A DNA stretch of 64,000 nucleotides from Elusimicrobiota bacterium (GTDB lineage: Bacteria > Elusimicrobiota > Endomicrobiia > Endomicrobiales > Endomicrobiaceae): assembly GCA_017525905.1 (NCBI GenBank), contig JAFXSD010000007.1, positions 3,531 through 67,530 of the forward strand, read 5' to 3'. The number at the start of each line of letters is the position of its first letter. Within the stretch, counting starts at the first letter, position 1. This document shows positions 5,204 to 49,800 of this stretch, piece by piece. The translations under genes were made by a program, and so were the position numbers. The notes beneath the pieces are model-generated. The model searched no databases. It was not told the origin of the DNA and was given only the letters and a program-made list of their open reading frames with translations.

Positions 5204-7060
5204 ATGGGTACAAGAGAAGATATCAGAAATGTAGCAATAATAGCCCATGTTGACCATGGCAAAACAACAATAGTAGATTCAATGTTAAAGGTTGCAGGTG
5301 AGTGGACCGTTAAAGAAGATGAAGTTCAAGATACGGTTTTGGATTCCGATCCTATTGAAAGAGAAAGAGGTATTACAATCCTTGCAAAGTGTACTTCAAT
5401 AAAATATAAAGACCATACCATAAACATAGTAGATACTCCGGGACATGCCGATTTCGGCAGCGAAGTTGAAAGAGTATTGAAAATGGTGGATAGTGCAATT
5501 CTTATGGTGGATGCGGCCGAAGGGCCTATGCCGCAAACAAGATTTGTTTTAAGAAAAGCGCTTGAACTCGGTTTAAATCCCATAGTTGTTATAAACAAAA
5601 TGGATAAACCGCAAGCCAATGCCAGTAAAGCAATAGATGATATATTTGAACTGTTTATGAAACTCGGTGCTACTGACAGACAACTTGATTTTCCTATATT
5701 TTATGCTTCCGGCAGGGAAGGTTGGGCAAGTACAAAAATAGATAAAAAAGGAACGGATGTTTCTCCGTTGCTTGACGGTATAATAAAATATGTTCCGGCA
5801 CCTGAAGCCGATATAGATAAACATCTTCAAATGCAAATAACAATGATAGATTATAACAACTTTTTGGGCAGAGTCGGTATAGGCAGAATATTGAACGGCT
5901 CAATTAAAAAAGGTCAAACGGTTCTTCTTGTGAATAAAGACGGTTCAACTCAATCTAAAGCCGTAAAAATAGAAAAGTTTTTAGGACTTGCAAAAGTTGA
6001 AGTTGAAGAAGCGTCTGCCGGCGATATTGTTTCCATATCCGGTCTTGAAGGGTTAAAAGTAGGTGATACGGTTTGTGAGTTGGAACATCCTTTACCGCTT
6101 GAACCGTTAGCTATAGACGAGCCGACAATATCTATGGACTTTTTAGTTAACGATTCGCCTTTTGCAGGCAGAGAAGGAAAATTTTTAACATCAAGACACT
6201 TAAAAGCAAGACTTGAAAAAGAAGCTCAAACAAATGTCGGTTTAAAAGTTGAAGAACTTGAAGGTGAGGGCAGATTTAAAGTTTCAGGCAGGGGAGAACT
6301 GCATTTAACCGTTCTTATAGAAAACATGAGAAGAGAAGGATTTGAACTTGCGGTGTCAAGTCCGGAAGTTATTTTTAAAGAAGTTGACGGGAAAATGTGT
6401 GAACCTATGGAATATCTTATTCTTGATATAGATTCGGATTTTCAGGGAGTAGTTTTTGAACTTATAGGTAAAAGAAGTGCACAGCTTGAAAATATGGTAA
6501 GCGAGGGTAAGGATCATTTGAGATTGGAATATATTATTCCGTCAAGAGCTTTGATAGGATTTAAGAACGAATTTTTAACGGCAACAAAAGGTACCGGAAT
6601 AATGCATCACAGCTTTCACGGATATTTACCGAAAGCAGATATTTCTTCGTTAAGAGGTAACGGAGTATTTATTGCCATGGCTCCGGGAAAAACTACAGCT
6701 TATGCTTTACATAATTTGGAAGACGGCGGAGAAATGTTTGTAGGTCCCGGTGAAGAAGTTTACGAAGGTATGATAGTCGGCCAAAATTCCAGAGAAAGAG
6801 ATCTTGTAGTTAATCCGTGCAAACCTAAAAAACTTACAAACATGAGAAGTAAAGCTGCCGATGAAGCATTGACCTTAACACCGCACAGAGTTATGAGTTT
6901 GGAACAATCTGTTGAATATATTGCTCCCGATGAACTTGTGGAAATTACACCTACGGCATTAAGATTAAGGAAAAAAATTCTTAACGCTTTAGACAGAAAA
7001 AGGACAGCAAGAAATGAAAGATATGAAGAAGCTCAACTCGAAGAACGGGAAGAAGATTAG
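5204..7060 (+). CDS. typA: Translational GTPase TypA/BipA
   Basis: G-domain motifs AHVDHGKTT, DTPGHADF and NKMD are present, the layout is EF-G-like, and the length is 618 aa. Confidence 0.95.
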   Translation: MGTREDIRNVAIIAHVDHGKTTIVDSMLKVAGEWTVKEDEVQDTVLDSDPIERERGITILAKCTSIKYKDHTINIVDTPGHADFGSEVERVLKMVDSAILMVDAAEGPMPQTRFVLRKALELGLNPIVVINKMDKPQANASKAIDDIFELFMKLGATDRQLDFPIFYASGREGWASTKIDKKGTDVSPLLDGIIKYVPAPEADIDKHLQMQITMIDYNNFLGRVGIGRILNGSIKKGQTVLLVNKDGSTQSKAVKIEKFLGLAKVEVEEASAGDIVSISGLEGLKVGDTVCELEHPLPLEPLAIDEPTISMDFLVNDSPFAGREGKFLTSRHLKARLEKEAQTNVGLKVEELEGEGRFKVSGRGELHLTVLIENMRREGFELAVSSPEVIFKEVDGKMCEPMEYLILDIDSDFQGVVFELIGKRSAQLENMVSEGKDHLRLEYIIPSRALIGFKNEFLTATKGTGIMHHSFHGYLPKADISSLRGNGVFIAMAPGKTTAYALHNLEDGGEMFVGPGEEVYEGMIVGQNSRERDLVVNPCKPKKLTNMRSKAADEALTLTPHRVMSLEQSVEYIAPDELVEITPTALRLRKKILNALDRKRTARNERYEEAQLEEREED

Positions 7061-8579: not shown

Positions 8580-9257
8580 TTATTGAAACAGATATGCTTT
8601 TCCGTCGTGAAGTATATAAGTTTTTCCGTCTATAACAATCATACTGTCACTGTTATTTGATGCCGGTTGACTTTGTACTTGTTGAGGTTGTGCCGCCGGA
8701 ACAGCTTTTTTAATTTCTTTTTTTACGGGTACGGGTTTCGGTGCAGGTATAGGTGCCGGAGTTGGTTCTGCCACGGAAGAATCATAAGCTGCATCTGTAA
8801 CTATAAAACATAAATCTTCTTCCCCGAAATAAACATCCGTTATTTCTACATCGTCGTTGTGACCTCTGAAATTAAAAGTAAATCTAACCACATTGTTGTT
8901 TTTTCTTGAAAATTTTCCGTCTTTTCCGAAATATCTTGGAAATTCTCTGTTCATATCATCTTCGAAGTACCCGTCAAATCCTTCGGAATCTCCCAGCTTT
9001 AATACCGGCATAGGTCTCATGTCATGAGTTTTTCCGTTGATTGTAATTGTGCAAGTTACATGTGATAAAGCAAGTGAAGAATTGTTTATAAGCTTGATTT
9101 CTTCATATACTCTTTGGTCAACAAGCGAACTTATGGTTGTTTCATAAACATATCCGCCCGACGGATCTTTTGTTACAACTCCGCTTTGTGCAAAAATCGC
9201 AGGAACCGTTAAAAAAGATGCTACAACAAAAACAGCAAAACTTTTAAAATTAAACAT
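8580..9257 (-). CDS. Secreted hypothetical protein with a Pro/Ala-rich linker
   Basis: It has a signal peptide (FAVFVVASFLTVPAIFA) and a PTPAPIPAPKPVP linker. I recognise no family. Confidence 0.55.
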   Translation of the reverse strand: MFNFKSFAVFVVASFLTVPAIFAQSGVVTKDPSGGYVYETTISSLVDQRVYEEIKLINNSSLALSHVTCTITINGKTHDMRPMPVLKLGDSEGFDGYFEDDMNREFPRYFGKDGKFSRKNNNVVRFTFNFRGHNDDVEITDVYFGEEDLCFIVTDAAYDSSVAEPTPAPIPAPKPVPVKKEIKKAVPAAQPQQVQSQPASNNSDSMIVIDGKTYILHDGKAYLFQ

Positions 9258-9405: not shown

Positions 9406-11322
9406 ATGTCAAAGTTGATAGCATTTGTCGGTAATCCTAATGTCGGCAAATCCGTAATATTTAATAAACTTACAGGTCAGTATGCTGTTGTTTCAAATTA
9501 TGCAGGTACCACGGTTGATGTTACAAGAGGAAATATTACAATAGGTAACGAGCAATACCAAGTTGTTGATACTCCCGGCACATACTCTCTAATGCCGTTA
9601 TCGGAAGACGAGCAGGTTACAAGAGATTTAATAATAAAAGAAAAACCTAACATTATAGTGCAAGTTTGCGATATGAAAAATATTGAAAGGTCGTTACACT
9701 TGTTCTGTGAACTTGCATTGTTCAAAATTCCTATGGTATTGGTTTTAAATATGCGGGATGAAGCTATTCAGTCCGGAATCAGAATAAATGTAAAAAAGCT
9801 AACTGAAATTTTAGGTGTTCCGATAACCTGTTGTACGGCAACAACCGGTGACGGTGTAAGCGATATTTTAAAAATTATTCCTCAAGCAACAGTAAGTAAC
9901 TTAAACATTGAATATAAAAACAATAAAGATATTTTAACGGTGGAAAATATTTTAAAAGATAAATCTTCGATATCAAAAGTATTATCGGTATATTTGTTGT
10001 CCGGTGATAAAGATATTAAACAGTATGTCCCGCAAAAGTTGCAGGAGAAAGTTTTTAAGTTGGTATCTGATACTGTTAAAGATGAATACAAAATGTTTGC
10101 CGCACAAATATTTCATGATAACAACGAAACAATATTAAATATCGTTTCTAAAGTAAAAACAATAAAACACAGGAAACATAAAAGTATTATGGAAAAGATT
10201 GGCAACATTTGTTTGCAACCCTTTTGGGGAACGATAATAATGTTGTTCATCATTTTTATAATGTACGAATTTATCGGAGTGTTTGTTGCGGGTTTTGTTG
10301 TAGATTGGATACAAACAAAAGTGTTTGAAGAATTGATAAATCCGTTTATTGCAAATTGTTTCGATTATCTTGGAACCGGACCGGTTGTAAATTTCATAAA
10401 AGATCTGTTTGTCGGTCAGTACGGAATTTTTACAATGGCAATACCGTACGCTTTTGCAATAATATTCCCTATAGTTATTGCATTCTTTTCTTTTTTCGGG
10501 ATATTGGAAGATTCCGGTTATTTACCGAGATTATCTGTAATACTTAACAGATTGTTTTCGCTTGTAGGTTTAAACGGAAAAGCCGTTCTTCCCATGGTGT
10601 TGGGGGTGGGATGCGGAACTATGGCGGTGTTAAGTTCAAGAATACTCGAAACAAAAAAAGAAAGAATGATAGTTGTAATTTTGTTATCTCTTTCAATACC
10701 GTGTTCGGCACAATTGGGAATTATTCTTGCAATGTTGTCGTCGGTATCCTATAAAGCGACAATAGTCTGGTTATTGTGTATATTGTTTTCACTTTTCCTG
10801 GTGGGAAAGGTTTTAGATTTTTATGTTAAAGGCGAGTCTACAAACTTTATTATAGAAATTCCCAAAATGAGAATACCATCCGTAATAAACATTTTATCTA
10901 AAGTGAAAATGAGACTTGTTTGGTACATGAAAGAGGTAGTTCCTTTATTTATTTTGGCTACGGTCGGCTTGTTTTTTATGGACAAAATTCATTTGCTTAC
11001 AATACTTGAAAAATGGTTTTCTCCGATAGTGGTAAAATTTTTAGGGTTGCCTGTAGAAACAACAAGCACATTTATTATGGGCTTTTTAAGAAGAGATTAC
11101 GGAGCATCAGGAATTTATACTTTGGCACAAGACGGACTTTTGTCGGGAACACAAATTTTGGTTAGTGCGGTAGTTATAACTTTGTTTGTTCCTTGTCTTG
11201 CACAAAGTTTGATGGTAATAAAAGAGCATGGAATAAAAATTGCTTCAATAGTTTTTATAGCGATAACGACTTATGCAATTTTATTTGGAGGAACATTAAG
11301 ATTTATTATTTCATTTTTTTAA
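9406..11322 (+). CDS. feoB: Ferrous iron transporter FeoB
   Basis: The N-terminal G domain has GNPNVGKS and DTPG, followed by a polytopic membrane domain. The length is 638 aa. No separate feoA gene is adjacent. Confidence 0.95.
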   Translation: MSKLIAFVGNPNVGKSVIFNKLTGQYAVVSNYAGTTVDVTRGNITIGNEQYQVVDTPGTYSLMPLSEDEQVTRDLIIKEKPNIIVQVCDMKNIERSLHLFCELALFKIPMVLVLNMRDEAIQSGIRINVKKLTEILGVPITCCTATTGDGVSDILKIIPQATVSNLNIEYKNNKDILTVENILKDKSSISKVLSVYLLSGDKDIKQYVPQKLQEKVFKLVSDTVKDEYKMFAAQIFHDNNETILNIVSKVKTIKHRKHKSIMEKIGNICLQPFWGTIIMLFIIFIMYEFIGVFVAGFVVDWIQTKVFEELINPFIANCFDYLGTGPVVNFIKDLFVGQYGIFTMAIPYAFAIIFPIVIAFFSFFGILEDSGYLPRLSVILNRLFSLVGLNGKAVLPMVLGVGCGTMAVLSSRILETKKERMIVVILLSLSIPCSAQLGIILAMLSSVSYKATIVWLLCILFSLFLVGKVLDFYVKGESTNFIIEIPKMRIPSVINILSKVKMRLVWYMKEVVPLFILATVGLFFMDKIHLLTILEKWFSPIVVKFLGLPVETTSTFIMGFLRRDYGASGIYTLAQDGLLSGTQILVSAVVITLFVPCLAQSLMVIKEHGIKIASIVFIAITTYAILFGGTLRFIISFF

Positions 11323-11345
11323 AAAAATGAAATAATAATATAACG

Positions 11346-11462
11346 ATTTGCAATTTCTAACTACGACTTTGTATTTTTAAAATTTATGTACTCTTTCGCT
11401 CCGCTATATTTTTAGTACACCGCATTTTAAAAATACTTCGTCTCGTTTAAGAACTTGCAAAT
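11346..11462. repeat. Long imperfect palindrome (about 117 bp) at the left edge of the AT-rich island
   Basis: The arms at 11346-11383 and 11424-11462 are reverse-complementary with a few mismatches (ATTTGCAA...GTATTTTTAAAAT). An inner TGTACT/AGTACA pair flanks the core CTTTCGCTCCGC. Confidence 0.7.
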
Positions 11463-11507
11463 TTAAAGGCAACAATACAAAGAAAAGTTTAGGAGTCTGT
11501 TGTTTGT

Positions 11508-13142
11508 ATGAAAATAAAAGAAATTAGAATCAATAATTTTAAACGCTTTACGGATCTAACAATAACGGGGATTCCAGAAACTGCAAAGCTTGTAGTATTA
11601 GTTGGTCCAAATGGGTGTGGAAAAACTTCATTGTTTGAAGCATTTAATGTATGGTATCAAATTAAAGGCTTTAGTATGCTAGGTACTCACGATTATCAAT
11701 ACTATATAAAAAAATCTAATTATAATAATATTCAAGATAAGACATCAGTATTCTTTTTTGATGATATCAACAAAATAATTAAATTAATTTATTATGGATC
11801 AAGTTTAAGTAAGGGACAAATTTGTAGAAGTTTTTATTTTAGATCTGCATATAGAAATGAATCGAATTTTGTAATATCAAATTTAAGTAAACAAAAAAAT
11901 CCTATAAACGATATGGAAATAAATCGTAAAACTCTAATAACTACAGATGCTATTGTATCAGAAAATTATCATCGTTTAATTTCTTCGATTATATCAAGTT
12001 TATTTATAAAAGAAAATAATGATAGAACTGTTGAAGAATTAAGAAAAGAATTAATAGAAAAAATTCAAATTTCAATACATAATGTCTTTGAAGATTTGGA
12101 ATTATCATCATTGGGTGAACCATTGGAAAATGGTTCTTTTTATTTTACGAAGGGAAACTCAAAAAATTTTATTTATGCTAATTTATCAGCTGGAGAAAAA
12201 TCAGCTTTTGATCTAATATTAGATTTAATCATAAAATCTAGTTATTTTACAGATACAGTTTTTTGTATTGATGAACCGGAATCTCATATGCATACAATAT
12301 TACAATCAAAATTATTGAAGGAATTGTATTCTTTAATTTCTAAAAATTCCCAGCTTTGGATTTCTACTCATTCTATGGGAATGTTGAAAAAAGCAAAAGA
12401 ACTTGAAGAAGAAAATCCTGGGACTGTAGTTTTTTTGGATTTTGAAAATAGAGATTTTGATAACAAAGTTGTTATGACTCCTTCAAGAATTGATTCAACT
12501 ATGTGGAAACGATTTTTAGATTTAGCTCTTGGTGATCTATCAAAGCTTATTGCTCCAAAAATAGTTGTATTTTGTGAAGGAAATACAAATGGAAGAAAAT
12601 ATAAAGATTTTGATGCTCAAATATATACAAAAATATTTAATAGTAAATATCCGGATGTTAGTTTTGTTTCTGTTGGTTCATGCTCTGAAATTGAGAATGA
12701 AGAAAATATTAGTATGAAAATAATTTCTCAAACTTTAAGTAATTCTAAAAAAATTAAACTTGTTGATAGAGATGATATGAATGATAATGAAATAGAAGAA
12801 CTAAAAAATCAAGATATAAAAGTTCTGTCTAAAAGGCATATAGAATCTTATTTGTTAGATGATGAAATATTGAAGCTTCTATGTGAGAAAGAAAATAAAT
12901 CGGATAAATATGATGAGATTATATCTATAAAAAAAGCAAAATTAGAAGATTCTATTTCAAGAGGAAATCCAAAAGATGATATAAAATCTGCGAGTGGTGA
13001 CATTTATGTTGAGATAAAGAAAATATTACAACTATCGCATAGTGGAAATACCAAAGATGCATTTTTTAGAGACACATTAGCACCTCTAATTACGCCAGAA
13101 ACACAAGTTTATAAAGAATTAGAAAAAGATATATTTGAATAA
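11508..13142 (+). CDS. OLD-family-like protein: ABC/SMC-type ATPase fused to a Toprim/DUF4435-like C-terminal domain (GajA/PARIS-like)
   Basis: ATPase motifs are Walker A GPNGCGKTS, signature-like LSAGEKSAF, Walker B FCIDEPESHMH and H-loop ISTHS. The C-terminal part has VVFCEGNT (Toprim Glu), LVDRDD (DxD) and HIESYLL. Confidence 0.65.
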   Translation: MKIKEIRINNFKRFTDLTITGIPETAKLVVLVGPNGCGKTSLFEAFNVWYQIKGFSMLGTHDYQYYIKKSNYNNIQDKTSVFFFDDINKIIKLIYYGSSLSKGQICRSFYFRSAYRNESNFVISNLSKQKNPINDMEINRKTLITTDAIVSENYHRLISSIISSLFIKENNDRTVEELRKELIEKIQISIHNVFEDLELSSLGEPLENGSFYFTKGNSKNFIYANLSAGEKSAFDLILDLIIKSSYFTDTVFCIDEPESHMHTILQSKLLKELYSLISKNSQLWISTHSMGMLKKAKELEEENPGTVVFLDFENRDFDNKVVMTPSRIDSTMWKRFLDLALGDLSKLIAPKIVVFCEGNTNGRKYKDFDAQIYTKIFNSKYPDVSFVSVGSCSEIENEENISMKIISQTLSNSKKIKLVDRDDMNDNEIEELKNQDIKVLSKRHIESYLLDDEILKLLCEKENKSDKYDEIISIKKAKLEDSISRGNPKDDIKSASGDIYVEIKKILQLSHSGNTKDAFFRDTLAPLITPETQVYKELEKDIFE

Positions 13143-13234
13143 TATAAAAAAGGTGTTACTTAAAAAATTTGATAGCTAAAAGAAAAAATTGTTATTTGAA
13201 TTAAGATGGTGAGATAAAGGTATAAAACAAAAAT

Positions 13235-13263
13235 TTGACAAAATATACAGATGTATGTATAAT
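13235..13263 (+). promoter_or_regulatory. Consensus sigma70-type promoter (TTGACA-17 nt-TATAAT) directly upstream of the methyltransferase ATG
   Basis: TTGACA lies at 13235-13240, the spacer is 17 nt, and TATAAT lies at 13258-13263. The first in-frame ATG at 13271 is only 7 nt downstream. Confidence 0.5.
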
Positions 13264-13270
13264 AATATCT

Positions 13271-14866
13271 ATGTTAAACAATATATATTTATCAATTAAA
13301 GAAGCAAGTAACTGGGCAAGTAATTATTTAGGAAAAGAAGTAACTATTTCTAATATTTCTTATCTTATTCAATATGGAAGAATAAGAAAAATAGGGCATA
13401 ACGGTTCAACACAGATTTTAAAGTCAGATTTAGAAAGATATTATAAAAGTATAAACAAATCAAAAGAAATTGCTTGGAAAGAGAAATTAGGACAAGATTT
13501 AAATTGGAATTTATCTTTTGATAATTTAAAAGAAAAAGATACAACTAAACATGTTCATAGACTTCACCCTTACAAAGGAAAATTTATACCTCAACTAGTT
13601 GAATATTTTTTAGATGCACATACCGATAACTTTAAAAAAGAACAATATTTTTATAAGAATGATATAATTTTAGATCCATTTTGTGGTAGTGGAACTACTC
13701 TCGTTCAAGCAAATGAACTTGGTATTCATGCCATAGGAATAGATATCTCATCTTTTAATTCTTTTATTTCAAATTGTAAAATAAACGAATATTATATTGG
13801 CGAAATGGAAAAAATTATAAAAGATATTACTGACAAATTTGAAATAAAAGTAAATCAGTCAAATATTATAAACTTTGAAAATGAACTTATTGACCAATTA
13901 AATATTTTTAATAATAAATATTTTCCTGTGCCTGAATATAAATATAAATTAAGACAAAATTTAATAGATGAATATAAATATGGAAAGGAAAAAGAAAAGT
14001 TATTTTTATCCATTTATAGAAAATTAATCTCAAAATACAATGTTGATTTACTTAAAGAAAAGCCGAAAACTTTTTTGGAAAAATGGTATTTTAAAAATGT
14101 TTTAAATGAAATGAATTTTATATTTCAAGAAATTGAAAAAATAAAAAATCAAAATTCGAAAAAAATTGTAAGTTTAATTTTGAGTAGAACTATTCGTTCT
14201 TGCAGAGCAACAACACATTCTGATTTGGCAACACTTTTAGAACCTGTTAATACAACTTATTATTGTCATAAACATGGTAAAATTTGTAAGCCAATTTTTT
14301 CAATTTTAAAATGGTGGAAAACATATTCAAAAGATACAGTAAAAAGATTAAAAGAATTTTCAAACTTAAGAACTAATACTTATCAATATTGTTTAACTGG
14401 TGATAGTTCTAATATAAATATTGTTAAAGAAATTTCAAAACAAAATAAAAATTTAGGTGAAATTTTAAAAAATAGAAAAATTGACGGAATTTTCTCAAGC
14501 CCACCTTATGTCGGTCTTATTGATTACCACGAACAACATGCATATGCCTATGATTTATTCGGCTTCAAAAGAAATGATAATTTAGAAATAGGTTCTTTGT
14601 CAAAAGGACATACAAAACAAGCTCAAAAAGATTATATAAAGGGAATTTCAGCGGTTTTAAATAATTGTAAAAAATATTTAAAAAAAGATTATAATGTGTT
14701 TTTAGTTGCAAACGATAAATATAACTTATATCCGAAAATTGCAGAACTTGCCGGAATGAAAATAGTAAATCAATTTAAAAGACCAGTTTTAAATAGAACA
14801 GAAAAAGATAAAAATGCTTATGCTGAAATTATTTTTCATTTGAGGGAACAATATGATGGACAATGA
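13271..14866 (+). CDS. DNA methyltransferase (N4-cytosine or N6-adenine, alpha-class motif order) with an N-terminal HTH-like segment
   Basis: Motif I is DPFCGSGTTLVQANELG. About 270 aa later comes motif IV, FSSPPYVGLIDY. The N-terminus LSIKEASNWASNYLGKEVTISNISYLIQYGRI resembles an HTH. The listed ORF starts at the TTG at 13235, which I read as the -35 box. Confidence 0.8.
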   Translation: MLNNIYLSIKEASNWASNYLGKEVTISNISYLIQYGRIRKIGHNGSTQILKSDLERYYKSINKSKEIAWKEKLGQDLNWNLSFDNLKEKDTTKHVHRLHPYKGKFIPQLVEYFLDAHTDNFKKEQYFYKNDIILDPFCGSGTTLVQANELGIHAIGIDISSFNSFISNCKINEYYIGEMEKIIKDITDKFEIKVNQSNIINFENELIDQLNIFNNKYFPVPEYKYKLRQNLIDEYKYGKEKEKLFLSIYRKLISKYNVDLLKEKPKTFLEKWYFKNVLNEMNFIFQEIEKIKNQNSKKIVSLILSRTIRSCRATTHSDLATLLEPVNTTYYCHKHGKICKPIFSILKWWKTYSKDTVKRLKEFSNLRTNTYQYCLTGDSSNINIVKEISKQNKNLGEILKNRKIDGIFSSPPYVGLIDYHEQHAYAYDLFGFKRNDNLEIGSLSKGHTKQAQKDYIKGISAVLNNCKKYLKKDYNVFLVANDKYNLYPKIAELAGMKIVNQFKRPVLNRTEKDKNAYAEIIFHLREQYDGQ

Positions 14867-16919
14867 GAATAATATATTTAGATTAGCAGCTGTATTGTAT
14901 GCAGATAGTAACTATGATGGAATTAGCACTTTAGGTATCCGTAAAAAAATAATTGAATCTGTTTTTATAGAAAATTTAAAAAAAGAAATATCTATTCATG
15001 AAATTATTGATTTTATTGAATTAAATTATAATTTAATTTTTAGCGAACAAGACGTTAATTCTGTGTTGAAAAAATATAGTAGTGATTTTTATACTAGCAA
15101 AAAAGATAATATCTTATTTATTTCAATTCCACAAAAAAGGAAAAACAATATTCTCAATAAAATAAATAATAATATTGATTATTTTATTGATATTTTTATA
15201 AAAGACAACAAAAATAAATATATTGATATAGATATTAAGGATGTAATTTATAAATTTTTATATAATGTTTTCACTACCAATATCAATAGTTTTCAAAAAT
15301 TAATTACAAGTAAAAAAAACACAGAACTTAATAATAATTATAATTGTAAAGATAGCGAAAAAATTTTGATAAATAATTTTTTAGATTGGGATAATGATGA
15401 TAAAAATAAGGCTATATTTGATATCGCAAGTTATGCTTTAGAGTACTGCTTTTTAACAAACAAAAAAGATTCTAATGCATTAAAACTATCTAGTTTAAAT
15501 AATAAACAATTTTATATTGATACAAATATAATATATAGAGCGTTAGGTATTAATGGTGTTGATAGGCAAAAAAGATGTATAACTTTTTTACAAAAATTTA
15601 ATGAATGTAAAAATAAATTAATAATTTCAAAGCACACAGATAAAGAATTTAAAAGCACAATAGATTTTCACATAAAACGAATTCAAAACTCATTAACTAC
15701 TAAAATAAATTCAAAAGTATTTAGAAATTATAAAAAATTCAAATATAATTATGTAAAAAATGATATTTTTACATTTTATCATGAATGGAGAATTAACAAA
15801 AACAATACAAATTTAAATATATTTCACATTCATTTACTTTCTTTATATGATAACCTAAAAAAACAGTTTAATATATCAATAGATAATGATATTTTGAATG
15901 ATAAACAATTATATATCAAACAAAATATATTAAATAATTATGTAGAAGAGATTTCAAATATAAAATCTACTGAAAGAGATGATTATGGTGATGTTAAACC
16001 TGATGCTCAAAATATTTTATTAATAGAAGAAAAAAGAAAAAGTAATAAAGATAATATTTTTAACACTATATATTTTTTAATTTCTGCTGATAAACTTTTA
16101 CAAAAATGGGACTCAAATAGAGCTTATAAAAATGATGTTACTCCTATTGTATTATTGCCAAGTCAATGGTTAAGTATTATTTTAAGATATATAAATCGTA
16201 GCAAAGATGATTTTAAAAGCTTTGTCGCTTTTTTAAATTTAAAGATGAATGATAATGTGATAACAGGAGAACAATTTCAGGCAATTTTAGCTGGTGTCAG
16301 TGAAGTAACTACTAATATAGAACAACAGACTACTTTTGTAAAAAATTTTATAGATAATGATTTCAAAAAACAAAGAATTGAACCTGAAAATATTAAAGAA
16401 ACTGCCAAGTTGTATGCAAAAAAAGAACTTGAAAAAGAGAACGAAATATTAAAATCAAATTACGAAGAAGTAATGAAAGAAAATAAAAAACTAAAATTAA
16501 ATGAAAATAAAAATATTGAGATAAATCAAAAACAAAAAACTATAAATATGAAATTAATAAAAGATAATGTGAGTAAAGATCTGTTAAATTGGAAGATTAG
16601 AGGTGTTGTTTTCTCAATACTGGTTATTCTTTTTTGTGTTACGTCAATAGTATTGTTATTTTATTTTCGAGATTGGAAATATAATTATATTTATAGTTTT
16701 AGTGATTACTTAAATAAATTATGTAGAAACAGTGTAATTATTGATAAATTAATAGATATGATATTAACAGCTTTGTTTGCTGTACCAATGTTGTCTTTAA
16801 AAAATTTATTTTGGTGTCGTTTATTTAATAAAAAATTTATTAAGCAAAAGATGCAAGAATTAGAACAAAATTATAATGATAAATATAATATAGTTAATAA
16901 AAAATCAAAATTAATATAA
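14853..16919 (+). CDS. Uncharacterised 688-aa protein: N-terminal wHTH-like region, PIN-like core, coiled coil, and two C-terminal transmembrane helices
   Basis: It overlaps the methyltransferase gene by 14 nt. PIN-like elements are FYIDTNIIYRALG and a later YFLISADKLL. The coiled coil is ELEKENEILKSNYEEVMKENKKLK. The TM helices are GVVFSILVILFCVTSIVLLFYF and ILTALFAVPMLSL. Confidence 0.6.
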   Translation: MMDNENNIFRLAAVLYADSNYDGISTLGIRKKIIESVFIENLKKEISIHEIIDFIELNYNLIFSEQDVNSVLKKYSSDFYTSKKDNILFISIPQKRKNNILNKINNNIDYFIDIFIKDNKNKYIDIDIKDVIYKFLYNVFTTNINSFQKLITSKKNTELNNNYNCKDSEKILINNFLDWDNDDKNKAIFDIASYALEYCFLTNKKDSNALKLSSLNNKQFYIDTNIIYRALGINGVDRQKRCITFLQKFNECKNKLIISKHTDKEFKSTIDFHIKRIQNSLTTKINSKVFRNYKKFKYNYVKNDIFTFYHEWRINKNNTNLNIFHIHLLSLYDNLKKQFNISIDNDILNDKQLYIKQNILNNYVEEISNIKSTERDDYGDVKPDAQNILLIEEKRKSNKDNIFNTIYFLISADKLLQKWDSNRAYKNDVTPIVLLPSQWLSIILRYINRSKDDFKSFVAFLNLKMNDNVITGEQFQAILAGVSEVTTNIEQQTTFVKNFIDNDFKKQRIEPENIKETAKLYAKKELEKENEILKSNYEEVMKENKKLKLNENKNIEINQKQKTINMKLIKDNVSKDLLNWKIRGVVFSILVILFCVTSIVLLFYFRDWKYNYIYSFSDYLNKLCRNSVIIDKLIDMILTALFAVPMLSLKNLFWCRLFNKKFIKQKMQELEQNYNDKYNIVNKKSKLI

Positions 16920-16931
16920 TTTGAGGTTTTT

Positions 16932-17966
16932 ATGAATAAAGAACAAAAACAAGCCATTGCATTTGTGGTTATTGAAATACTTAAGTCTAGATTTGATTCT
17001 TTTCCAAATACAGCAACAATTTCAAGAAATGCTCCTTTTCATAAAGCTTTTTTGCAAGCTTTTTCTAAAAACTTTGAAGCTTTAAATTTAAATATGGATG
17101 CATCTATAACTATAAGTTCATGGATTCACGGATTGAATACAACATTAGGTCAATCTTTTTTTGAAAAGACAGCACAAATTGTTTCTGGTGGACAAAAAAG
17201 AGCATTTAAAGATCGAAAAATATATTCTAATCAAGTAAACACAATATCAAATATCATGATTGATCTTAAAAATGGTACACAAAAACCAAATGTAGCAAGA
17301 GAAGAAAGCTTACTTATGAATAATTCGAATGGAAATTTAACAGTTGCTCAAAATTTTGTAGCAGATTGTATTTTTGAAGAAAAAGATAGAATTGTTGTTA
17401 TAGAGTTAAAATCTGTTCGTCCGAATTCAGGTCAAATACACGATGAAAAACAAAAAATTCTTTCAGCAAAAGCAGTATTAAAACAATTATATCCAAATAA
17501 AATAATTTCTTATTATTTTGGTTTTCCATTTGATCCTTTGTCTGATACAGAAACAGGTTGTGACAAACAGAGATTTATGAATAGTGTTATTGAATTTTCT
17601 AAGTTTTGTGATGCAAAAGAAATTTTAATATCAAGTGAATTATGGGATTTTCTATCTGGACAAGAACATACTATGGAGGATATATTAAAAATTATTAGAG
17701 ATATTTCTACTGTTGATTTTAATGATAAATTTGATTTTATTTCATCCCATAATTATTTAAATAATGTCGAGAGATATAGAGACGTTGTATTAAGTTGGAA
17801 TATTTATAACGAAATTGAAATAATTAATAACTTTGAAAACTTGTTAACATTAAGTAATACAAACAAAACAGTTGATAGAAATATTCATTCAAGTCCATTT
17901 AATCAAGATGGAACTTATAATATACGAAGATATAATAATTTAAAAAAATTTATTACTATAAATTAA
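16932..17966 (+). CDS. Type II restriction endonuclease, PD-(D/E)XK fold, tentatively TdeIII-like
   Basis: It has a D...ExK signature (ADCIFEEKDRIVVIELKS). The N-terminal PFHKAFL...HGLNTTLGQSFFE resembles what I recall of the TdeIII family. It lies in the same operon as a methyltransferase. Confidence 0.55.
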   Translation: MNKEQKQAIAFVVIEILKSRFDSFPNTATISRNAPFHKAFLQAFSKNFEALNLNMDASITISSWIHGLNTTLGQSFFEKTAQIVSGGQKRAFKDRKIYSNQVNTISNIMIDLKNGTQKPNVAREESLLMNNSNGNLTVAQNFVADCIFEEKDRIVVIELKSVRPNSGQIHDEKQKILSAKAVLKQLYPNKIISYYFGFPFDPLSDTETGCDKQRFMNSVIEFSKFCDAKEILISSELWDFLSGQEHTMEDILKIIRDISTVDFNDKFDFISSHNYLNNVERYRDVVLSWNIYNEIEIINNFENLLTLSNTNKTVDRNIHSSPFNQDGTYNIRRYNNLKKFITIN

Positions 17967-18060
17967 AAATTTTAAAATAATTATAGTTAAATTTACAAGT
18001 TTATATTCTGTTTTACAATTTGTTAAATTTTTACAATATTTTCAAAGAATTTTAAAAAAA

Positions 18061-18702
18061 ATGAAAACGAAATTGATAGAAAATAACAGTAATGATTTGG
18101 TTGTGTTTTTAACAGGTTGGGGATGCGACGATAACCAGTTTAAAAATTTTTCTTCAAGCAAAAATTTGCTGTTGTGTTGGGACTATTGTACATTGGATTT
18201 TGAGTTTGATTTCAGTAAATATAATAAAGTAAGTTTATTAACTTATTCTGCGGGCGTTTTGACAGCATGTTTGTTGCAAGATAAATTTCCTGAATTCGAT
18301 AAAAAAGTTGCAGTAAACGGTAATCCGTTAATGACAGATAAGAAGTTTGGAATAAGCAAAAAAATTATAGATTTAATGTTGAACTTAAATTTAGATAACT
18401 GCATGGACTTTATATCAACCTATCTTGTCCACGATGAACAAGAAATGAAGAAATTCCTTTCTACACCTTCTTACAGACCGTTTGAAAGTTCAAAACAAGA
18501 GTTGATAAAATTGCAGGAGTATTGTAATTTAAAGTTTAAACCTGTGGACTTTGATAAAGTGATTTTGTCCGATAACGATAAAGTATTTAATCCGGCTACG
18601 CAACAGGAATATTTTAAAGGTAATTTTGTGTTGCTGAAAAATGCGTCACATCATACACCGTTTTTGCGATTTAGTTCCGTTGATGAAATTTTTAATTTGT
18701 AG
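18061..18702 (+). CDS. bioG: DUF452/BioG-like esterase (pimeloyl-ACP methyl ester esterase family)
   Basis: It is collinear with my recollection of Haemophilus BioG: MKTK..., LVVFLTGWG, LLLCWDY, FEFDFS, the nucleophile elbow YSAGV, AVNG, and DKVFNPATQ. Confidence 0.6.
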   Translation: MKTKLIENNSNDLVVFLTGWGCDDNQFKNFSSSKNLLLCWDYCTLDFEFDFSKYNKVSLLTYSAGVLTACLLQDKFPEFDKKVAVNGNPLMTDKKFGISKKIIDLMLNLNLDNCMDFISTYLVHDEQEMKKFLSTPSYRPFESSKQELIKLQEYCNLKFKPVDFDKVILSDNDKVFNPATQQEYFKGNFVLLKNASHHTPFLRFSSVDEIFNL

Positions 18703-32539: not shown

Positions 32540-33247
32540 ATGAAACAATTGTTGTTTTCTTTTTTGGCAATGAGTTCGGCACTATTTGGAACTTTTATAG
32601 TATTGAAATTTTCCGAATGGGCAAGAAAAAATTCCATATTGTTAATAGGTTTTGCCGCAGGTGTTATGTTATCCATAGCATTTGTTCATTTGTTGCCGGA
32701 ATCGGTGGAACATAATCCCAATGCAATAATTTATGCTTTTGTCGGTTTCCTGTTTATGTTTGTAATTCAACATTTTATATTTTTTCATCCTTGTCACGAC
32801 GATCATTGTCATGTTCATTTAGGAACACTTTCCACTTTCGGTTTATCTTTGCATTCTTTTTTTGACGGTATAGTTATAAGTATAGGGTTTGGAGCAAATG
32901 CTTATATAGGACTTATGACAACAATAGCAATAATGTTGCACAAGTTACCGGACGGTGTAACAATTACCGGAATTTTGATGCACTCGAATAAGTCCATAAA
33001 ACAAATAATATGTTATTCGTTAACGGTGGCAATATTTACTCCCGTAGGAACACTGGTGGGACTTTTCTTTTCTAACCAAATAGCACATTTAATAGGCAGC
33101 TTTTTAGCATTTACCGCCGGAACATTTATTTATTTGTCAGCGGCGGATCTTATCCCGGAAACGCATAAAGCTTCCAATAAAAAAGCGGGATTATGTTTGT
33201 TGTTGGGTGTAATAATCGTTTCATTCTTAGGCCACATTGCCCACTAA
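32540..33247 (+). CDS. zupT: ZIP-family divalent metal transporter (ZupT-like)
   Basis: It is a polytopic membrane protein with a His-rich loop (HPCHDDHCHVH) and the HKLPDG motif. Confidence 0.8.
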   Translation: MKQLLFSFLAMSSALFGTFIVLKFSEWARKNSILLIGFAAGVMLSIAFVHLLPESVEHNPNAIIYAFVGFLFMFVIQHFIFFHPCHDDHCHVHLGTLSTFGLSLHSFFDGIVISIGFGANAYIGLMTTIAIMLHKLPDGVTITGILMHSNKSIKQIICYSLTVAIFTPVGTLVGLFFSNQIAHLIGSFLAFTAGTFIYLSAADLIPETHKASNKKAGLCLLLGVIIVSFLGHIAH

Positions 33248-33252
33248 ACTGC

Positions 33253-33284
33253 AATTTACAATTTACAATTTATAATCTATAATT
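33253..33284. repeat. Heptamer array downstream of the ZIP gene, in the opposite orientation to the upstream array
   Basis: It reads AATTTAC AATTTAC AATTTAT AATCTAT AATT. Confidence 0.7.
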
Positions 33285-33320
33285 AACACAATTATTAATT
33301 TATTAATTAAGGATAAAATT

Positions 33321-46534: not shown

Positions 46535-47467
46535 ATGTTAAAACCTAAAGTTGCAATAACAATTGGTGATCCGGCAGGAATAGGTCCGGAAATAGTTTTA
46601 AGGGCTGTAAATTCTTTGAAAGTTCAAAGGATTTGCAGCCCTGTTGTTGTCGGTGATAAAAAAATCATTTCAAAATATTTTAATTTGAATAAAAAATCAA
46701 ATAAAACAGAATTTGTATTCTCTTCCGATTATTGTGAAGAACCGATTTTGGGCAGCCCTTCAAAAATATCCGGGCTTATAGCTTGTGATGCAATAAAAAA
46801 AGCCGTAAAAATGTGTTTGGAAAATAAAACAAAATCTATGGTTACGGCACCGGTATCAAAAGAATCATTTAAATATGCCGGATTAAAATATTCCGGGCAT
46901 ACGGAATTTTTGGGAGCATTAACCAAAACAAAAAATTATTGTATGATGATGATTTGTGATGATATAAATTCGGTTATGGTAACAAGACATTTGCCTATAT
47001 CCGATATTTCATCGCAGTTAACACAAAAAGATATAATTTCCGCTACAAAACTTTCTGCGGATTTTATAAAAAAAATATTAAAAAGAAATCCCCAAATTTT
47101 ATTATGTGCATTGAACCCGCATGCCGGTGATAACGGAATTTTGGGTAATGATGAAAAAGAAAAAATTATTCCTGCTGTGAAAAAATTAAAAAAACAAGGC
47201 TACAATATTTGCGGACTTTATCCTGTAGATGTCGCATGGTCAAAATTCTTGAAAAACAAATATGATTTGATAGTGGGAATGTATCATGATCAAATAATGT
47301 TACCTTTAAAAATTTTAAATCCGAAACGGATAGTAAATGTTACCGCAGGACTTCCTTTTATAAGAACATCTCCGGGGCACGGAACAGCGTTCGATATTGC
47401 AGGTAAAAATGTTGCCGATCCGTCTTCCATGGAACAAGCAATAATTTATGCTGCAACCGGAAGATAG
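46535..47467 (+). CDS. pdxA: 4-hydroxythreonine-4-phosphate dehydrogenase PdxA
   Basis: It has ITIGDPAGIGPEI, GHTEFL, LNPHAGDNG and IRTSPGHGTAFDIAG. Confidence 0.9.
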   Translation: MLKPKVAITIGDPAGIGPEIVLRAVNSLKVQRICSPVVVGDKKIISKYFNLNKKSNKTEFVFSSDYCEEPILGSPSKISGLIACDAIKKAVKMCLENKTKSMVTAPVSKESFKYAGLKYSGHTEFLGALTKTKNYCMMMICDDINSVMVTRHLPISDISSQLTQKDIISATKLSADFIKKILKRNPQILLCALNPHAGDNGILGNDEKEKIIPAVKKLKKQGYNICGLYPVDVAWSKFLKNKYDLIVGMYHDQIMLPLKILNPKRIVNVTAGLPFIRTSPGHGTAFDIAGKNVADPSSMEQAIIYAATGR

Positions 47468-47539
47468 GATATAGCAGTTTTATTCGATGGAACTCATATC
47501 ATTAGAAAAAAAGCCTACAAAGATTAGGAAATTATATAA

Positions 47540-49456: not shown

Positions 49457-49517
49457 ATTAAGCATTGTTATGTTGGTATATAATGTAGAAAACAATTTAA
49501 ACAAACATGCCGATTGA
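49443..49517 (+). pseudogene. 24-codon remnant of a family-2 glycosyltransferase N-terminus
   Basis: ATG...TGA encodes MTDYKLSIVMLVYNVENNLNKHAD. It contains the GT2 start signature (KxSIVxxVYNxE) and then terminates. The ATG lies 14 nt inside the upstream gene, which is typical operon coupling. Confidence 0.55.
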
Positions 49518-49599
49518 TGTCATAAACAAATCACTATTCTTTATGCATTAGAAAAGTTTAAAAGTGGTTATTTGTCGTTAATTATAAATTGTTGTACTG

Positions 49600-49628
49600 T
49601 TGACTTTTTAAAATAATTTAATTATAAT
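49600..49628 (+). promoter_or_regulatory. Near-consensus sigma70 promoter for the infC-rpmI-rplT operon
   Basis: TTGACT lies at 49600-49605, the spacer is 17 nt, and TATAAT lies at 49623-49628. Confidence 0.5.
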
Positions 49629-49765: not shown

Positions 49766-49800
49766 GCAGGTAAAAATCCTGCGAGGGGGATTGTATAGAT

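What the first reader, a model, noticed from the sequence alone, without database searches (positions are those of the whole stretch)
11323..18060. AT-rich four-gene defence island: OLD/PARIS-like ATPase-Toprim, methyltransferase, membrane PIN-like protein and REase
Between feoB and bioG the base composition drops sharply. As spot checks only, I counted 8 G+C in the 60 nt at 15181-15240, against 31 G+C in the 60 nt at 10561-10620 inside feoB. The block holds four co-directional genes:
- 11508-13142 encodes an ABC ATPase fused to a Toprim/DUF4435-like domain.
- 13271-14866 encodes an SPPY DNA methyltransferase.
- 14853-16919 encodes a 688-aa protein of unknown family.
- 16932-17966 encodes a PD-(D/E)XK endonuclease.
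The last three genes are tightly packed. The methyltransferase and unknown gene overlap by 14 nt, and only 12 nt separate the unknown gene from the endonuclease, so the unknown gene sits inside what would otherwise be an ordinary type II M-R pair. No integrase or transposase is present. A 117-bp palindrome lies at the left border. I do not recognise a three-gene M / PIN-TM / R module with an adjacent single-protein OLD-like nuclease as any named defence system.
Basis: partly seen in the sequence, partly recalled or inferred. Interest (0 to 1): 0.85.

Follow-up and report, generated by a model that had tools for sequence, protein, structure and literature searches.

The report
Defence hotspot with R-M-embedded nuclease gene
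An AT-rich, horizontally acquired block in a rumen Elusimicrobia genome combines a PARIS-like nuclease with a restriction-modification cassette, and that cassette carries an embedded gene from a large uncharacterised family of membrane-anchored, probably PIN-type nucleases that repeatedly turns up inside restriction-modification operons.

Summary
In detail: four co-directional genes sit at the stated coordinates, and G+C is 0.23 against 0.33 outside (GC3 0.11-0.14 against 0.30-0.33). A relative whose FeoB is 93% identical has feoB directly next to bioG, so the block is an insertion.

It is two modules, not one four-gene system.
- Gene 1 is a fused ABC-ATPase/Toprim protein of the PARIS AriAB type (OLD family). 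Ca. Ruminimicrobiellum ovillum shares it at 90% nucleotide identity, followed there by a different R-M cassette.
- The second module (13266-18039) is a swappable cassette behind a conserved promoter. It holds an SPPY methyltransferase, the 688-aa gene and a TdeIII-family endonuclease.

The 688-aa protein matches nothing in Pfam, NCBIfam, PHROGs or PADLOC. Its family has about 900 clusters at 50% identity. The architecture is conserved: winged helix, PIN-like core with an invariant D-E-D-D set, coiled coil and two transmembrane helices.

In 14 of 42 other genomes it lies in a Type I R-M operon, and in 9 it follows an hsd gene within 22 nt. A sister strain carries an AIPR abortive-infection gene in its place.

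It is most likely an exchangeable, R-M-embedded defence nuclease. This is a good untested candidate, but the general concept is already published.

The parts
11339..11487 (.). Imperfect palindromic spacer element downstream of feoB. It is part of the ancestral feoB-bioG spacer, not of the inserted DNA.
   Evidence: It folds as a hairpin at 11345-11463 (-32.6 kcal/mol, z = -2.1). Window 11446-11487 aligns to the empty site of L050, 31 bp upstream of bioG. Inverted copies at 84-85% identity lie in the hexapeptide-transferase/dtxR spacer of L057 and L050. It is single-copy in the window and has no Rfam match.
11508..13142 (+). Gene 1: a single-polypeptide ABC ATPase (aa 1 to about 325) fused to a DUF4435-type Toprim nuclease domain (aa about 350-485, nt 12555-12962). 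It is a PARIS-like fused AriAB protein of the OLD family.
   Evidence: Pfam AAA_21 4.5e-20 and AAA_15 2.2e-16. The best PADLOC match is AriAB at 3.7e-31. The isolated C-terminus hits only the two AriAB models, at 7.9e-11 and 2.1e-8. Invariant residues include the Walker A GPNGxGK, D255-E256, H288, E357-G358 and D420-x-D422. The AF2 model has pLDDT 82.5. Foldseek hits: retron-Eco8 OLD-like effector 2.7e-11, Thermus OLD 6p74 2.2e-9 over 539 columns, plus PtuA and GajA.
13235..13263 (+). Conserved promoter TTGACA-17-TATAAT ending 7 nt before the methyltransferase ATG, which predicts a leaderless or nearly leaderless mRNA. It carries an ATACA-N2-TGTAT inverted repeat in its spacer.
   Evidence: It matches the consensus 12 of 12. 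The same element sits 6-7 nt upstream of the first methyltransferase ATG of two different R-M cassettes, in L057 and L053.
13266..18039 (+). Variable R-M cassette (M, embedded gene, R), bounded by sequence conserved with Ca. Ruminimicrobiellum ovillum.
   Evidence: In blastn, homology to L057 stops at 13265 and resumes at 18040. L057 carries a fused Dam-like methyltransferase, RE_AlwI and PDC-S57 in between.
13271..14866 (+). Gene 2: Type II DNA methyltransferase of the N6/N4 class, with an FxGxG motif (DPFCGSGTT) and an SPPY catalytic motif.
   Evidence: PADLOC MTase_II PDLC03249 at 8.5e-231 over nearly the full length. Pfam N6_N4_Mtase 4.8e-15. The motifs can be read in the translation.
14853..16919 (+). 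Gene 3: 688-aa protein of an unannotated family. It has a conserved N-terminal helix; a winged helix (aa 26-105, nt 14928-15167); a helical linker; a PIN-like core (aa about 215-450, nt 15495-16202) with invariant D223, E265, D384 and D413; a coiled coil (aa 511-575); and two transmembrane helices (aa 576-609 and 626-655, nt 16578-16679 and 16728-16817).
   Evidence: No hit in Pfam, PADLOC, NCBIfam or PHROGs. There are 373 homologues, and 903 clusters at 50% identity. Invariant columns are given. AF2 pLDDT is 81. Foldseek finds winged-helix repressors and the PIN-like HARP and AF1683, and the top viral hit is 'PIN like domain' (E 0.012, probability 1.0). Sub-threshold PF01850 hits fall in register. 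Hydropathy peaks are 3.07 and 1.83. A GAGGGA ribosome-binding site lies 6 nt before the ATG, inside the end of gene 2.
16932..17966 (+). Gene 4: Type II restriction endonuclease of the TdeIII family.
   Evidence: Pfam RE_TdeIII 3.4e-53 (181 bits against a cut-off of 27.2). PADLOC REase_II PDLC03509 at 4.1e-81. A GAGG ribosome-binding site lies 5 nt before the ATG.

Best explanation
The feoB|bioG spacer of this rumen Elusimicrobia lineage is a defence hotspot that holds two independently evolving modules.

Module 1 is a single-protein, PARIS-like (fused AriAB, OLD-family) ABC-ATPase/Toprim nuclease. By analogy with PARIS, it would sense a phage protein and then cut host tRNA or other nucleic acid to abort infection.

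Module 2 is a Type II R-M cassette driven by a conserved promoter placed directly before the methyltransferase ATG. It encodes an SPPY methyltransferase, then a translationally coupled 688-aa gene, then a TdeIII-family endonuclease.

The 688-aa protein is the interesting part. It is a cytoplasmic winged-helix plus PIN-like nuclease, held at the inner membrane by a coiled-coil stalk and two transmembrane helices.

I read it as an exchangeable, largely autonomous defence effector that rides inside R-M operons ('embedded'). It would add a second layer of defence, most likely nuclease attack on invading or host RNA/DNA at the membrane with an abortive-infection outcome. I do not read it as an obligatory third subunit of this R-M system.

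Shown: the insertion, the two-module structure, the domain families of genes 1, 2 and 4, the conserved architecture of gene 3, and its recurrent embedding in R-M operons.

Inferred: the PIN-type catalytic activity, the membrane topology (N- and C-termini inside), the defence function, and the leaderless transcription.
For: Insertion and hotspot:
- The relative with 93%-identical FeoB has feoB, 287 bp, then bioG.
- The relative with 85%-identical FeoB has two Dam-like methyltransferases plus a split REase in the slot.
- Ca. R. ovillum has the gene-1 homologue (88% aa) followed by a fused Dam-like MTase, RE_AlwI and PDC-S57.
- Homology with that genome runs over 11446-13265 and from 18040 onward.
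- G+C and GC3 are far below host values.

Gene 1:
- Homologues at 60-67% identity sit directly after hsdS in Type I operons.

Gene 3 family:
- There are 903 clusters at 50% identity, nearly all 660-720 aa long.
- D223, E265, D384 and D413 are invariant, each at the end of a beta strand or the start of a helix.
- PF01850 gives sub-threshold hits in the same register in 5 of 40 members.
- Foldseek finds HARP and AF1683 in PDB, and a viral 'PIN like domain' as top hit.

Gene 3 context:
- 14 of 42 loci have Type I hsd genes within 8 kb, all on the same strand. In 9 the g3 gene lies -22 to +21 nt from an hsd gene (most often hsdS), and in three it shows the 4-nt ATGA overlap.
- Other neighbours include PDC-S25 SIR2, DUF4365, a PLD nuclease, a C5 methyltransferase, a DUF4011 helicase, integrases, HipA and Fic.
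- Embedded members are scattered over the family tree.

Exchangeability:
- L065 has the same REase (98% aa) and bioG, but an AIPR family gene ends 19 nt before the REase ATG.
- L066 and L067 carry M (92%), g3 (92%) and R (66-69%).

Dispensability:
- One metagenome has a nonsense mutation in g3 (T15814A), and another has a 25-bp deletion in gene 1. The copies are otherwise 99.6-100% identical.
Against: - No experiment shows defence, nuclease activity or membrane insertion.
- The PIN assignment is below every curated threshold. The best Pfam score is 17.5 bits against 23.6, and Foldseek E-values are 0.012-0.9.
- Two thirds of g3 homologues are not next to recognisable R-M genes, so the R-M link is not obligatory.
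- Tight translational coupling to hsdS or to the methyltransferase could instead mean a physical partnership, as in the guardian rival.
- Gene 1 aligns to only part of the AriAB profile (positions 240-554 of 694). Pfam DUF4435 does not reach significance on this protein.
- Sigma-70 promoter rules are unverified for Elusimicrobia.
Confidence: 0.6

Rival explanations
1. R-M guardian, following PrrC logic. The 688-aa protein is a latent nuclease held inactive by the methyltransferase or specificity complex it is co-translated with. It is released when a phage anti-restriction protein disables the R-M system. Together with the PARIS-like gene 1, the island would form an 'anti-anti-restriction' battery.
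For: - The position is the same as prrC (after hsdS, before hsdR) in L024 and L034, and the equivalent M-g3-R order is found in the window.
- There are 4-nt or 14-nt overlaps with the upstream hsdS or M gene.
- M and g3 co-diverge (both 92%) while R is 66-69% identical in L066 and L067.
- Reviews describe PrrC and PARIS as R-M guardians.
- A strongly conserved N-terminal helix with low model confidence could be a docking motif.
Against: - About two thirds of family members have no R-M neighbour.
- The partners would have to be both Type I and Type II enzymes from unrelated families.
- There is no homology to PrrC or RloC.
- A natural g3 nonsense allele coexists with an intact R-M, which is neutral for this model.
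- Embedded systems tested so far mostly act independently.
Confidence: 0.15
2. M, the PIN-TM protein and R form one new obligate three-component restriction system, functionally linked to the adjacent OLD-like nuclease.
For: The three genes are tightly packed behind one promoter. The M-g3-R order recurs in a second, diverged version in L066 and L067.
Against: - Gene 1 is conserved while the cassette is swapped.
- No g3 homologue in 42 other genomes is next to a homologue of this M or R.
- The same R occurs with AIPR in place of g3.
- M and R match ordinary Type II families at full length.
Confidence: 0.08
3. The 688-aa protein is not a defence effector. It could be a membrane-tethered DNA-binding regulator, a maintenance or addiction factor of mobile R-M cassettes, or a protein of some unrelated membrane process that often lies in variable regions.
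For: - It has an N-terminal winged helix resembling transcriptional repressors.
- An inverted repeat lies in the cassette promoter.
- Many homologues sit near integrases, HTH proteins and toxin-antitoxin-like genes.
- One homologue lies on a Clostridium plasmid beside conjugation genes.
Against: - The same promoter and inverted repeat occur in cassettes that lack g3.
- The invariant D-E-D-D set argues for catalysis.
- The slot-mate in a sister strain is an abortive-infection protein.
- The neighbours are overwhelmingly defence genes.
Confidence: 0.12

Closest known systems
PARIS (AriA ABC ATPase plus AriB DUF4435 Toprim nuclease), fused AriAB form
   Same: Gene 1 has an ABC ATPase followed by a Toprim-type domain in one chain. 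The best PADLOC model is AriAB, and the isolated nuclease domain matches only AriAB models. PARIS papers note occasional fusion into one polypeptide.
   Different: Only part of the AriAB profile is covered. Pfam DUF4435 is not significant on this protein. Foldseek ranks the retron-Eco8 effector, PtuA, OLD and GajA ahead of AriA. Its relatives sit inside Type I R-M operons rather than in P4 satellites. The trigger and target are untested.
PrrC / RloC anticodon nucleases embedded in Type I R-M loci
   Same: Many g3 and gene-1 homologues share the genomic logic: an accessory nuclease gene placed after hsdS and before hsdR.
   Different: There is no sequence or domain relationship. PrrC is an ABC-ATPase-like NTPase plus an ACNase domain and is soluble. 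g3 is winged helix plus PIN-like plus coiled coil plus two transmembrane helices. g3 also occurs in a Type II cassette and as a stand-alone gene.
Embedded defence candidates of Payne et al. 2024 (HEC-01 to HEC-09, PDC systems; 'guilt by embedding'), especially HEC-09 (HTH plus NYN/PIN-like) and HEC-03 (ATPase plus PIN)
   Same: The concept is the same: defence genes inserted inside multi-gene immune operons. HEC-09 also combines an N-terminal HTH-like region with a PIN-like nuclease.
   Different: g3 matches no HEC or PDC model at E up to 0.1, although the library does hold them. g3 is about 690 aa long with a coiled coil and a membrane anchor.
TgvAB, a Type IV GmrSD-like pair embedded in the Vibrio cholerae VPI-2 Type I R-M
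   Same: It is an experimentally shown case of an independent defence module embedded in an R-M operon and complementing it.
   Different: The proteins are unrelated (DUF262/DUF1524), it is a two-gene system, and it has no membrane anchor.
PIN-domain nucleases (VapC toxins; HARP protein-only RNase P; AF1683)
   Same: The order of four invariant acidic residues (D-E-D-D) on a beta/alpha core is the same. There are weak structural matches to HARP and AF1683 and to a phage 'PIN like domain' protein.
   Different: The core carries large helical insertions. No curated PIN model reaches threshold. No antitoxin gene is present. The winged helix and membrane anchor are additional.
AIPR abortive-infection proteins
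   Same: An AIPR gene occupies exactly the g3 position, ending 19 nt before the same REase gene, in sister contig L065.
   Different: There is no homology to g3. AIPR is a soluble protein with a different fold.

Membership tests
PARIS (AriA/AriB, fused AriAB) | ABC-type ATPase with Walker A, Walker B and H-loop | tested here: met
   Pfam AAA_21, AAA_15 and SMC_N hits. Invariant G33-P-N-G-x-G-K39, D255-E256 and H288. Foldseek finds ABC-ATPase defence proteins.
PARIS (AriA/AriB, fused AriAB) | DUF4435-type Toprim nuclease domain (conserved E and DxD) | tested here: met
   The isolated C-terminus (aa 330-544) hits only the PADLOC AriAB models, at 7.9e-11 and 2.1e-8. E357 and D420-x-D422 are invariant. 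PF14491 is precomputed on two homologues at 50-59% identity. Caveat: PF14491 is not significant on this protein itself.
PARIS (AriA/AriB, fused AriAB) | Full-length agreement with the fused AriAB profile | tested here: inconclusive
   The best stretch covers profile positions 240-554 of 694.
PARIS (AriA/AriB, fused AriAB) | Activation by an anti-restriction protein (Ocr) and tRNA cleavage | not testable with these tools
   This needs phage or plasmid challenge and RNA analysis. The mechanism is taken from PMC11464382.
OLD-family nucleases (single-chain ATPase plus Toprim) | ATPase and Toprim domains in one polypeptide, with fold similarity to solved OLD proteins | tested here: met
   Foldseek gives 6p74 Thermus OLD at E 2.2e-9 over 539 columns, the retron-Eco8 effector at 2.7e-11, and GajA. 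PADLOC Old scores 4.1e-14.
Type II restriction-modification system (TdeIII family) | Endonuclease belongs to a curated Type II REase family | tested here: met
   PF09520 RE_TdeIII scores 181 bits against a cut-off of 27.2. PADLOC REase_II scores 4.1e-81.
Type II restriction-modification system (TdeIII family) | Cognate DNA methyltransferase with AdoMet-binding and (S/D)PPY motifs in the same operon | tested here: met
   PADLOC MTase_II scores 8.5e-231. DPFCGSGTT and SSPPY motifs are present. It shares strand and promoter with the REase. The two genes are separated by the 2.07-kb embedded gene.
Type II restriction-modification system (TdeIII family) | Defined recognition sequence and matching methylation | not testable with these tools
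   This needs a SMRT or nanopore methylome and cleavage assays. From memory, not tested: TdeIII is listed as cutting GGNCC, and SPPY suggests m4C.
PIN-domain superfamily (688-aa protein) | Match to a curated PIN model above threshold | tested here: not met
   The window protein has no hit. The best score in a homologue is 17.5 bits against a cut-off of 23.6.
PIN-domain superfamily (688-aa protein) | Four conserved acidic residues (D-E-D-D) at strand ends of an alpha/beta core | tested here: met
   D223, E265, D384 and D413 are invariant in 88 sequences. They sit after strands 219-222, 255-259 and 407-410 and at the start of helix 382.
PIN-domain superfamily (688-aa protein) | Fold similarity to solved or predicted PIN proteins | tested here: inconclusive
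   PDB hits: HARP 8kda, 7og5 and 8ssf at E 0.4-0.9 and probability about 0.5, and AF1683 at probability 0.23. BFVD hit: 'PIN like domain' at E 0.012 and probability 1.0 over 230 columns.
PrrC/RloC R-M-linked anticodon nucleases | Gene embedded in a Type I R-M operon next to hsdS | tested here: met
   True for 9-14 of 42 g3 homologues. The window copy sits in a Type II cassette.
PrrC/RloC R-M-linked anticodon nucleases | ABC-ATPase-like N-domain plus ACNase C-domain | tested here: not met
   There is no PADLOC, Pfam or NCBIfam hit of any kind for the 688-aa protein.
PADLOC HEC/PDC embedded candidates | HMM match to a listed candidate | tested here: not met
   Zero families at E up to 0.1. The library does contain PDC and HEC models.
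R-M controller (C) protein | Small (about 70-100 aa) HTH protein upstream of R | tested here: not met
   The protein is 688 aa with a coiled coil and two transmembrane helices.

The most novel reading that the evidence does not exclude
The 688-aa family is a new class of membrane-anchored winged-helix/PIN nuclease that is functionally coupled to the modification or specificity half of R-M systems, being co-translated with hsdS or the methyltransferase. It would fire when restriction is bypassed, or when foreign nucleic acid enters at the membrane. That is a PrrC-like guardian logic built on a different fold and extended from Type I to Type II systems. It is widespread in Bacteroidota and has been moved into Elusimicrobia.
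Probability: 0.2. Interest if true: 0.8.

Novelty: new variant of a known kind. Interest (0 to 1): 0.55.

Why it matters
R-M systems are the most common bacterial immune systems, and phages routinely disarm them. Genes that ride inside R-M operons, such as PrrC and TgvAB (and the analogous HEC genes embedded in Hma clusters), have turned out to be second-line defences.

This locus offers three useful things.
- It gives a cleanly delimited natural series at one chromosomal site: an empty site, three different R-M cassettes behind one conserved promoter, and the same endonuclease paired with either the 688-aa gene or an AIPR gene.
- It highlights a large family (about 900 clusters) with a fully conserved architecture that is absent from Pfam and PADLOC.
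- If the family is confirmed as a defence nuclease, it would add a membrane-tethered PIN effector to the repertoire. It would also give a tractable test of whether embedded genes act with their host R-M system or merely beside it.

Tried and rejected
- A genome scan with the single 688-aa protein found no relatives. It worked only with an alignment.
- Pfam, NCBIfam, PADLOC and PHROGs on the whole protein and on its sub-regions gave nothing above threshold.
- A profile search of PDB sequences gave only coiled-coil noise.
- Scanning all 88 members at once exceeded the size limit.
- tblastn of gene 3 against plasmids gave one Clostridium plasmid, and against phages nothing.
- Gene 4 had no plasmid match, and gene 2 had only partial methyltransferase-domain matches. 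I therefore could not show a contiguous M-R pair of this exact family elsewhere.
- The metagenome scan with gene 4 gave a single locus, which turned out to be informative.
- Rfam found nothing in 10800-18600.
- No flanking direct repeats or att-like sites were found. The best candidate, 20 nt at 80% identity (11423/18136), looks like chance.
- I considered the palindrome as an island border or terminal inverted repeat and rejected it, because it is present in the empty site and elsewhere in relatives.
- I considered MADS, because genes 1 and 2 gave weak mad3 and mad2 hits. I rejected it: NCBIfam MAD3 scores 27 bits against a cut-off of 420, and AriAB and MTase_II score far higher.
- I considered Menshen because of the NsnB hit. 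Its PIN-like domains lack the catalytic residues and its architecture differs.

Full report
**Observation.** G+C falls to 0.18-0.28 in the 1-kb windows from 11 to 18 kb, against about 0.30-0.38 elsewhere. Overall the island is 0.232 and the rest of the window 0.330. GC3 is 0.11-0.135 in the four genes, against 0.30 in feoB and 0.33 in bioG. The 14-nt overlap and the 12-nt gap are exact, and each downstream gene has a GAGG-type ribosome-binding site 5-6 nt before its ATG.

**Is it an island?** Yes. The organism is an Elusimicrobia MAG close to Candidatus Ruminimicrobiellum ovillum.
- All contigs that carry the identical BioG also carry the block.
- A relative whose FeoB is 93% identical has feoB, a 287-bp spacer and then bioG, with no island.
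- A relative at 85% has two Dam-class methyltransferases and a split Type II REase in the same slot.
- A relative at 74% has feoB directly followed by the dtxR-like gene.

The feoB|bioG spacer is therefore a variable defence hotspot.

**It is two modules, not one.** Ca. R. ovillum carries, at the same site, a gene-1 homologue (88% aa) followed by a different cassette: a fused Dam-like methyltransferase, RE_AlwI, and a T5orf172 protein that matches PADLOC candidate PDC-S57. Nucleotide homology between the two genomes covers feoB, window 11446-13265 (gene 1 plus the intergenic region, 90%), and everything from 18040 onward. The cassette at 13266-18039 is replaced.

The left break falls just after a perfect TTGACA-17-TATAAT promoter (13235-13263), which ends 7 nt before the methyltransferase ATG. 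The same element, including an ATACA-N2-TGTAT inverted repeat in its spacer, lies 6-7 nt before the first methyltransferase ATG of the R. ovillum cassette. It also lies before the third cassette, in L053, which lacks gene 1 altogether. I infer a leaderless or nearly leaderless methyltransferase transcript and cassette exchange by recombination between conserved flanks. Neither inference is shown.

**The palindrome.** The hairpin at about 11345-11463 is real. However, window 11446-11487 aligns to the empty site of the relative, 31 bp upstream of bioG. Inverted copies of the 150-bp element lie in another spacer of two relatives. It is a resident small repeat, and the left junction of the insertion lies between about 11488 and 11507.

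**Gene 1.**
- Pfam sees only the ABC ATPase. PADLOC's best model is AriAB, the fused PARIS form (3.7e-31).
- The isolated C-terminal 215 residues match only the two AriAB models.
- The alignment of 48 homologues has an invariant Walker A, D255-E256, H288 and a Toprim-like E357 plus D420-x-D422.
- The AF2 model (pLDDT 82.5) matches OLD-family and related ABC-ATPase defence proteins over nearly its full length: the retron-Eco8 effector, Thermus OLD, PtuA and GajA.
- The family is highly conserved (56-69% identity) across Treponema, Bacteroidales and Plesiomonas.
- In the two non-Elusimicrobia homologues examined (60% and 67% identity), it is embedded directly after hsdS in a Type I operon.

PARIS is described as sensing the anti-restriction protein Ocr and cleaving tRNA, and as occasionally fused into one chain. 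I file gene 1 as a PARIS-like fused AriAB/OLD-family protein. Its trigger and target are untested.

**Genes 2 and 4.** Gene 2 matches a PADLOC Type II methyltransferase model end to end (8.5e-231) and has DPFCGSGTT and SSPPY motifs. Gene 4 is a TdeIII-family REase (181 bits against a cut-off of 27.2). Together they are an ordinary Type II pair, apart from what lies between them.

**Gene 3, the 688-aa protein: annotation and structure.** It has no hit in Pfam, NCBIfam, PADLOC or PHROGs. PADLOC does contain the HEC and PDC candidates, so this gene is not among them. It has 373 homologues in the 90% clusters, mostly from Bacteroidota. A full HMM search finds 903 clusters at 50% identity, 401 of them below 1e-30, and nearly all are 660-720 aa long.

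Conservation is very strong over residues 1-510. This region includes an N-terminal FRLAAVLYADNNYE helix, FYLD223TN, E265, D384, S411-x-D413, VLLPSQW and DD452-453.

The AF2 model (pLDDT 81) shows the following order of elements:
- a winged helix (aa 26-105);
- a helical linker;
- an alpha/beta core in which the four invariant acidic residues sit at strand ends or helix starts, in the D-E-D-D order typical of PIN nucleases (rule quoted);
- a roughly 90-residue helix;
- two hydrophobic helices at 576-609 and 626-655.

**Gene 3: fold evidence.** Against PDB, Foldseek finds winged-helix repressors and, as the only other fold class, the PIN-like HARP RNase P and AF1683, all weakly. Against viral models, the top hit is a protein named 'PIN like domain' (E 0.012, probability 1.0). 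Pfam PIN gives sub-threshold hits in the same register in 5 of 40 members. I put the PIN-like assignment at about 0.8. It fails the curated threshold.

**Gene 3: context.** In 42 other genomes, none has homologues of the window's genes 1, 2 or 4 nearby.
- 14 loci have Type I hsdM, hsdS or hsdR within 8 kb, always on the same strand.
- In 9 loci g3 starts between -22 and +21 nt from the end of the adjacent upstream hsd gene (most often hsdS), three times with a 4-nt overlap.
- HsdS and N6_Mtase are the commonest families among the 132 nearest neighbours.
- Other neighbours are PDC-S25 (SIR2), DUF4365, a PLD nuclease, a C5 methyltransferase, a DUF4011 helicase, integrases, HipA, Fic and RhuM.
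- Embedded members are scattered over the family tree.

**Gene 3: variants within the window's own lineage.**
- L066 and L067 carry M (92%), g3 (92%) and R (66-69%).
- L065 carries the same R (98% aa) and bioG, but an AIPR-family abortive-infection gene ends 19 nt before the R start.
- Among otherwise 99.6-100% identical copies, one has a nonsense mutation in g3 and another a 25-bp deletion in gene 1.

**Interpretation.** The slot between M and R behaves like the embedded-gene slots described for Type I R-M, BREX, DISARM and Hma clusters and for TgvAB in Vibrio. The most economical reading is that g3 is an exchangeable, largely autonomous defence nuclease tethered to the inner membrane, adding a second layer to whichever R-M system it rides in (confidence 0.6).

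The PrrC-like guardian reading stays alive because of the tight translational coupling and the M/g3 co-divergence. It is weakened because two thirds of homologues lack an R-M neighbour (0.15).

**Novelty and score.** The island as such, gene 1 and the R-M pair are known kinds, and embedding is a published principle. What is new is the family itself and its architecture. So are its recurrent coupling to hsdS or M and the unusually clean natural series at this hotspot. It is a solid candidate among many, hence an interest of 0.55.

Noticed in passing
window 13235-13270; L057 10716-10751; L053 about 5918-5958: One conserved promoter (TTGACAAA..ATACAG(A/T)TGTAT..TATAAT) lies 6-7 nt before the ATG of three different R-M cassettes in three related lineages. 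This implies leaderless methyltransferase mRNAs. The 5-bp inverted repeat in the promoter spacer could be an operator.
   Followed up: partly
window 11339-11487; L057 17130-17277 (-); L050 13582-13718 (-): A palindromic element of about 150 bp occurs in different intergenic spacers of related genomes at 84-85% identity, so it looks like a small REP/MITE-like repeat. It is single-copy in this window and has no Rfam match.
   Followed up: partly
L046 (equivalent to window 15814); L048 (equivalent to window 11849-11873): Natural knock-outs occur in metagenome copies that are otherwise 99.6-100% identical: T15814A makes codon 321 of the 688-aa gene a stop, and a 25-bp deletion frameshifts gene 1. 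These two are among only five variants seen in 6.7 kb. I could not exclude assembly error.
   Followed up: partly
L065 3-899 and 916-1950: A sister contig has the same TdeIII-family REase (98% aa) and bioG, but an AIPR-family abortive-infection gene directly upstream instead of the 688-aa gene. Homology to the window starts at 16928. The contig is too short to show whether the methyltransferase lies further upstream.
   Followed up: partly
L060-L064: Homologues of gene 1 (60-67% identity) are embedded between hsdS and hsdR of Type I operons in other phyla. In one case other small genes are also present, including a weak ThsB_TIR hit and an AAA_14/DUF4143 ATPase. In another a Fic gene lies between hsdM and hsdS.
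   Followed up: partly
L053 5959-9485: The R-M cassette of the 85%-FeoB relative has two Dam-class methyltransferases. Its REase is split into 330-aa and 112-aa ORFs that match consecutive parts of one PADLOC REase_II model, so it is probably a decaying endonuclease with retained methylases.
   Followed up: partly
L025 12062-13576: A SIR2-like gene matching PADLOC candidate PDC-S25 (4.6e-150) sits 13 nt after the g3 homologue, with hsdM and hsdS upstream and an HsdR gene downstream. Two embedded candidates therefore lie side by side.
   Followed up: no
window 33001-35000 and 47001-50000: There are further dips in G+C (0.284-0.285 and 0.265-0.287, against about 0.33) that could be other acquired regions.
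   Followed up: no
The precomputed Pfam table labels PF09520 as 'HinfI', whereas hmmscan names the same accession RE_TdeIII. This is a naming inconsistency in the tables, not a biological signal.
   Followed up: no
window 8580-9257 (-) versus L057, L053: The 225-aa minus-strand gene between queF and feoB in the window is absent from relatives L057 and L053, where queF abuts feoB. This is another small variable insertion next to the hotspot.
   Followed up: no
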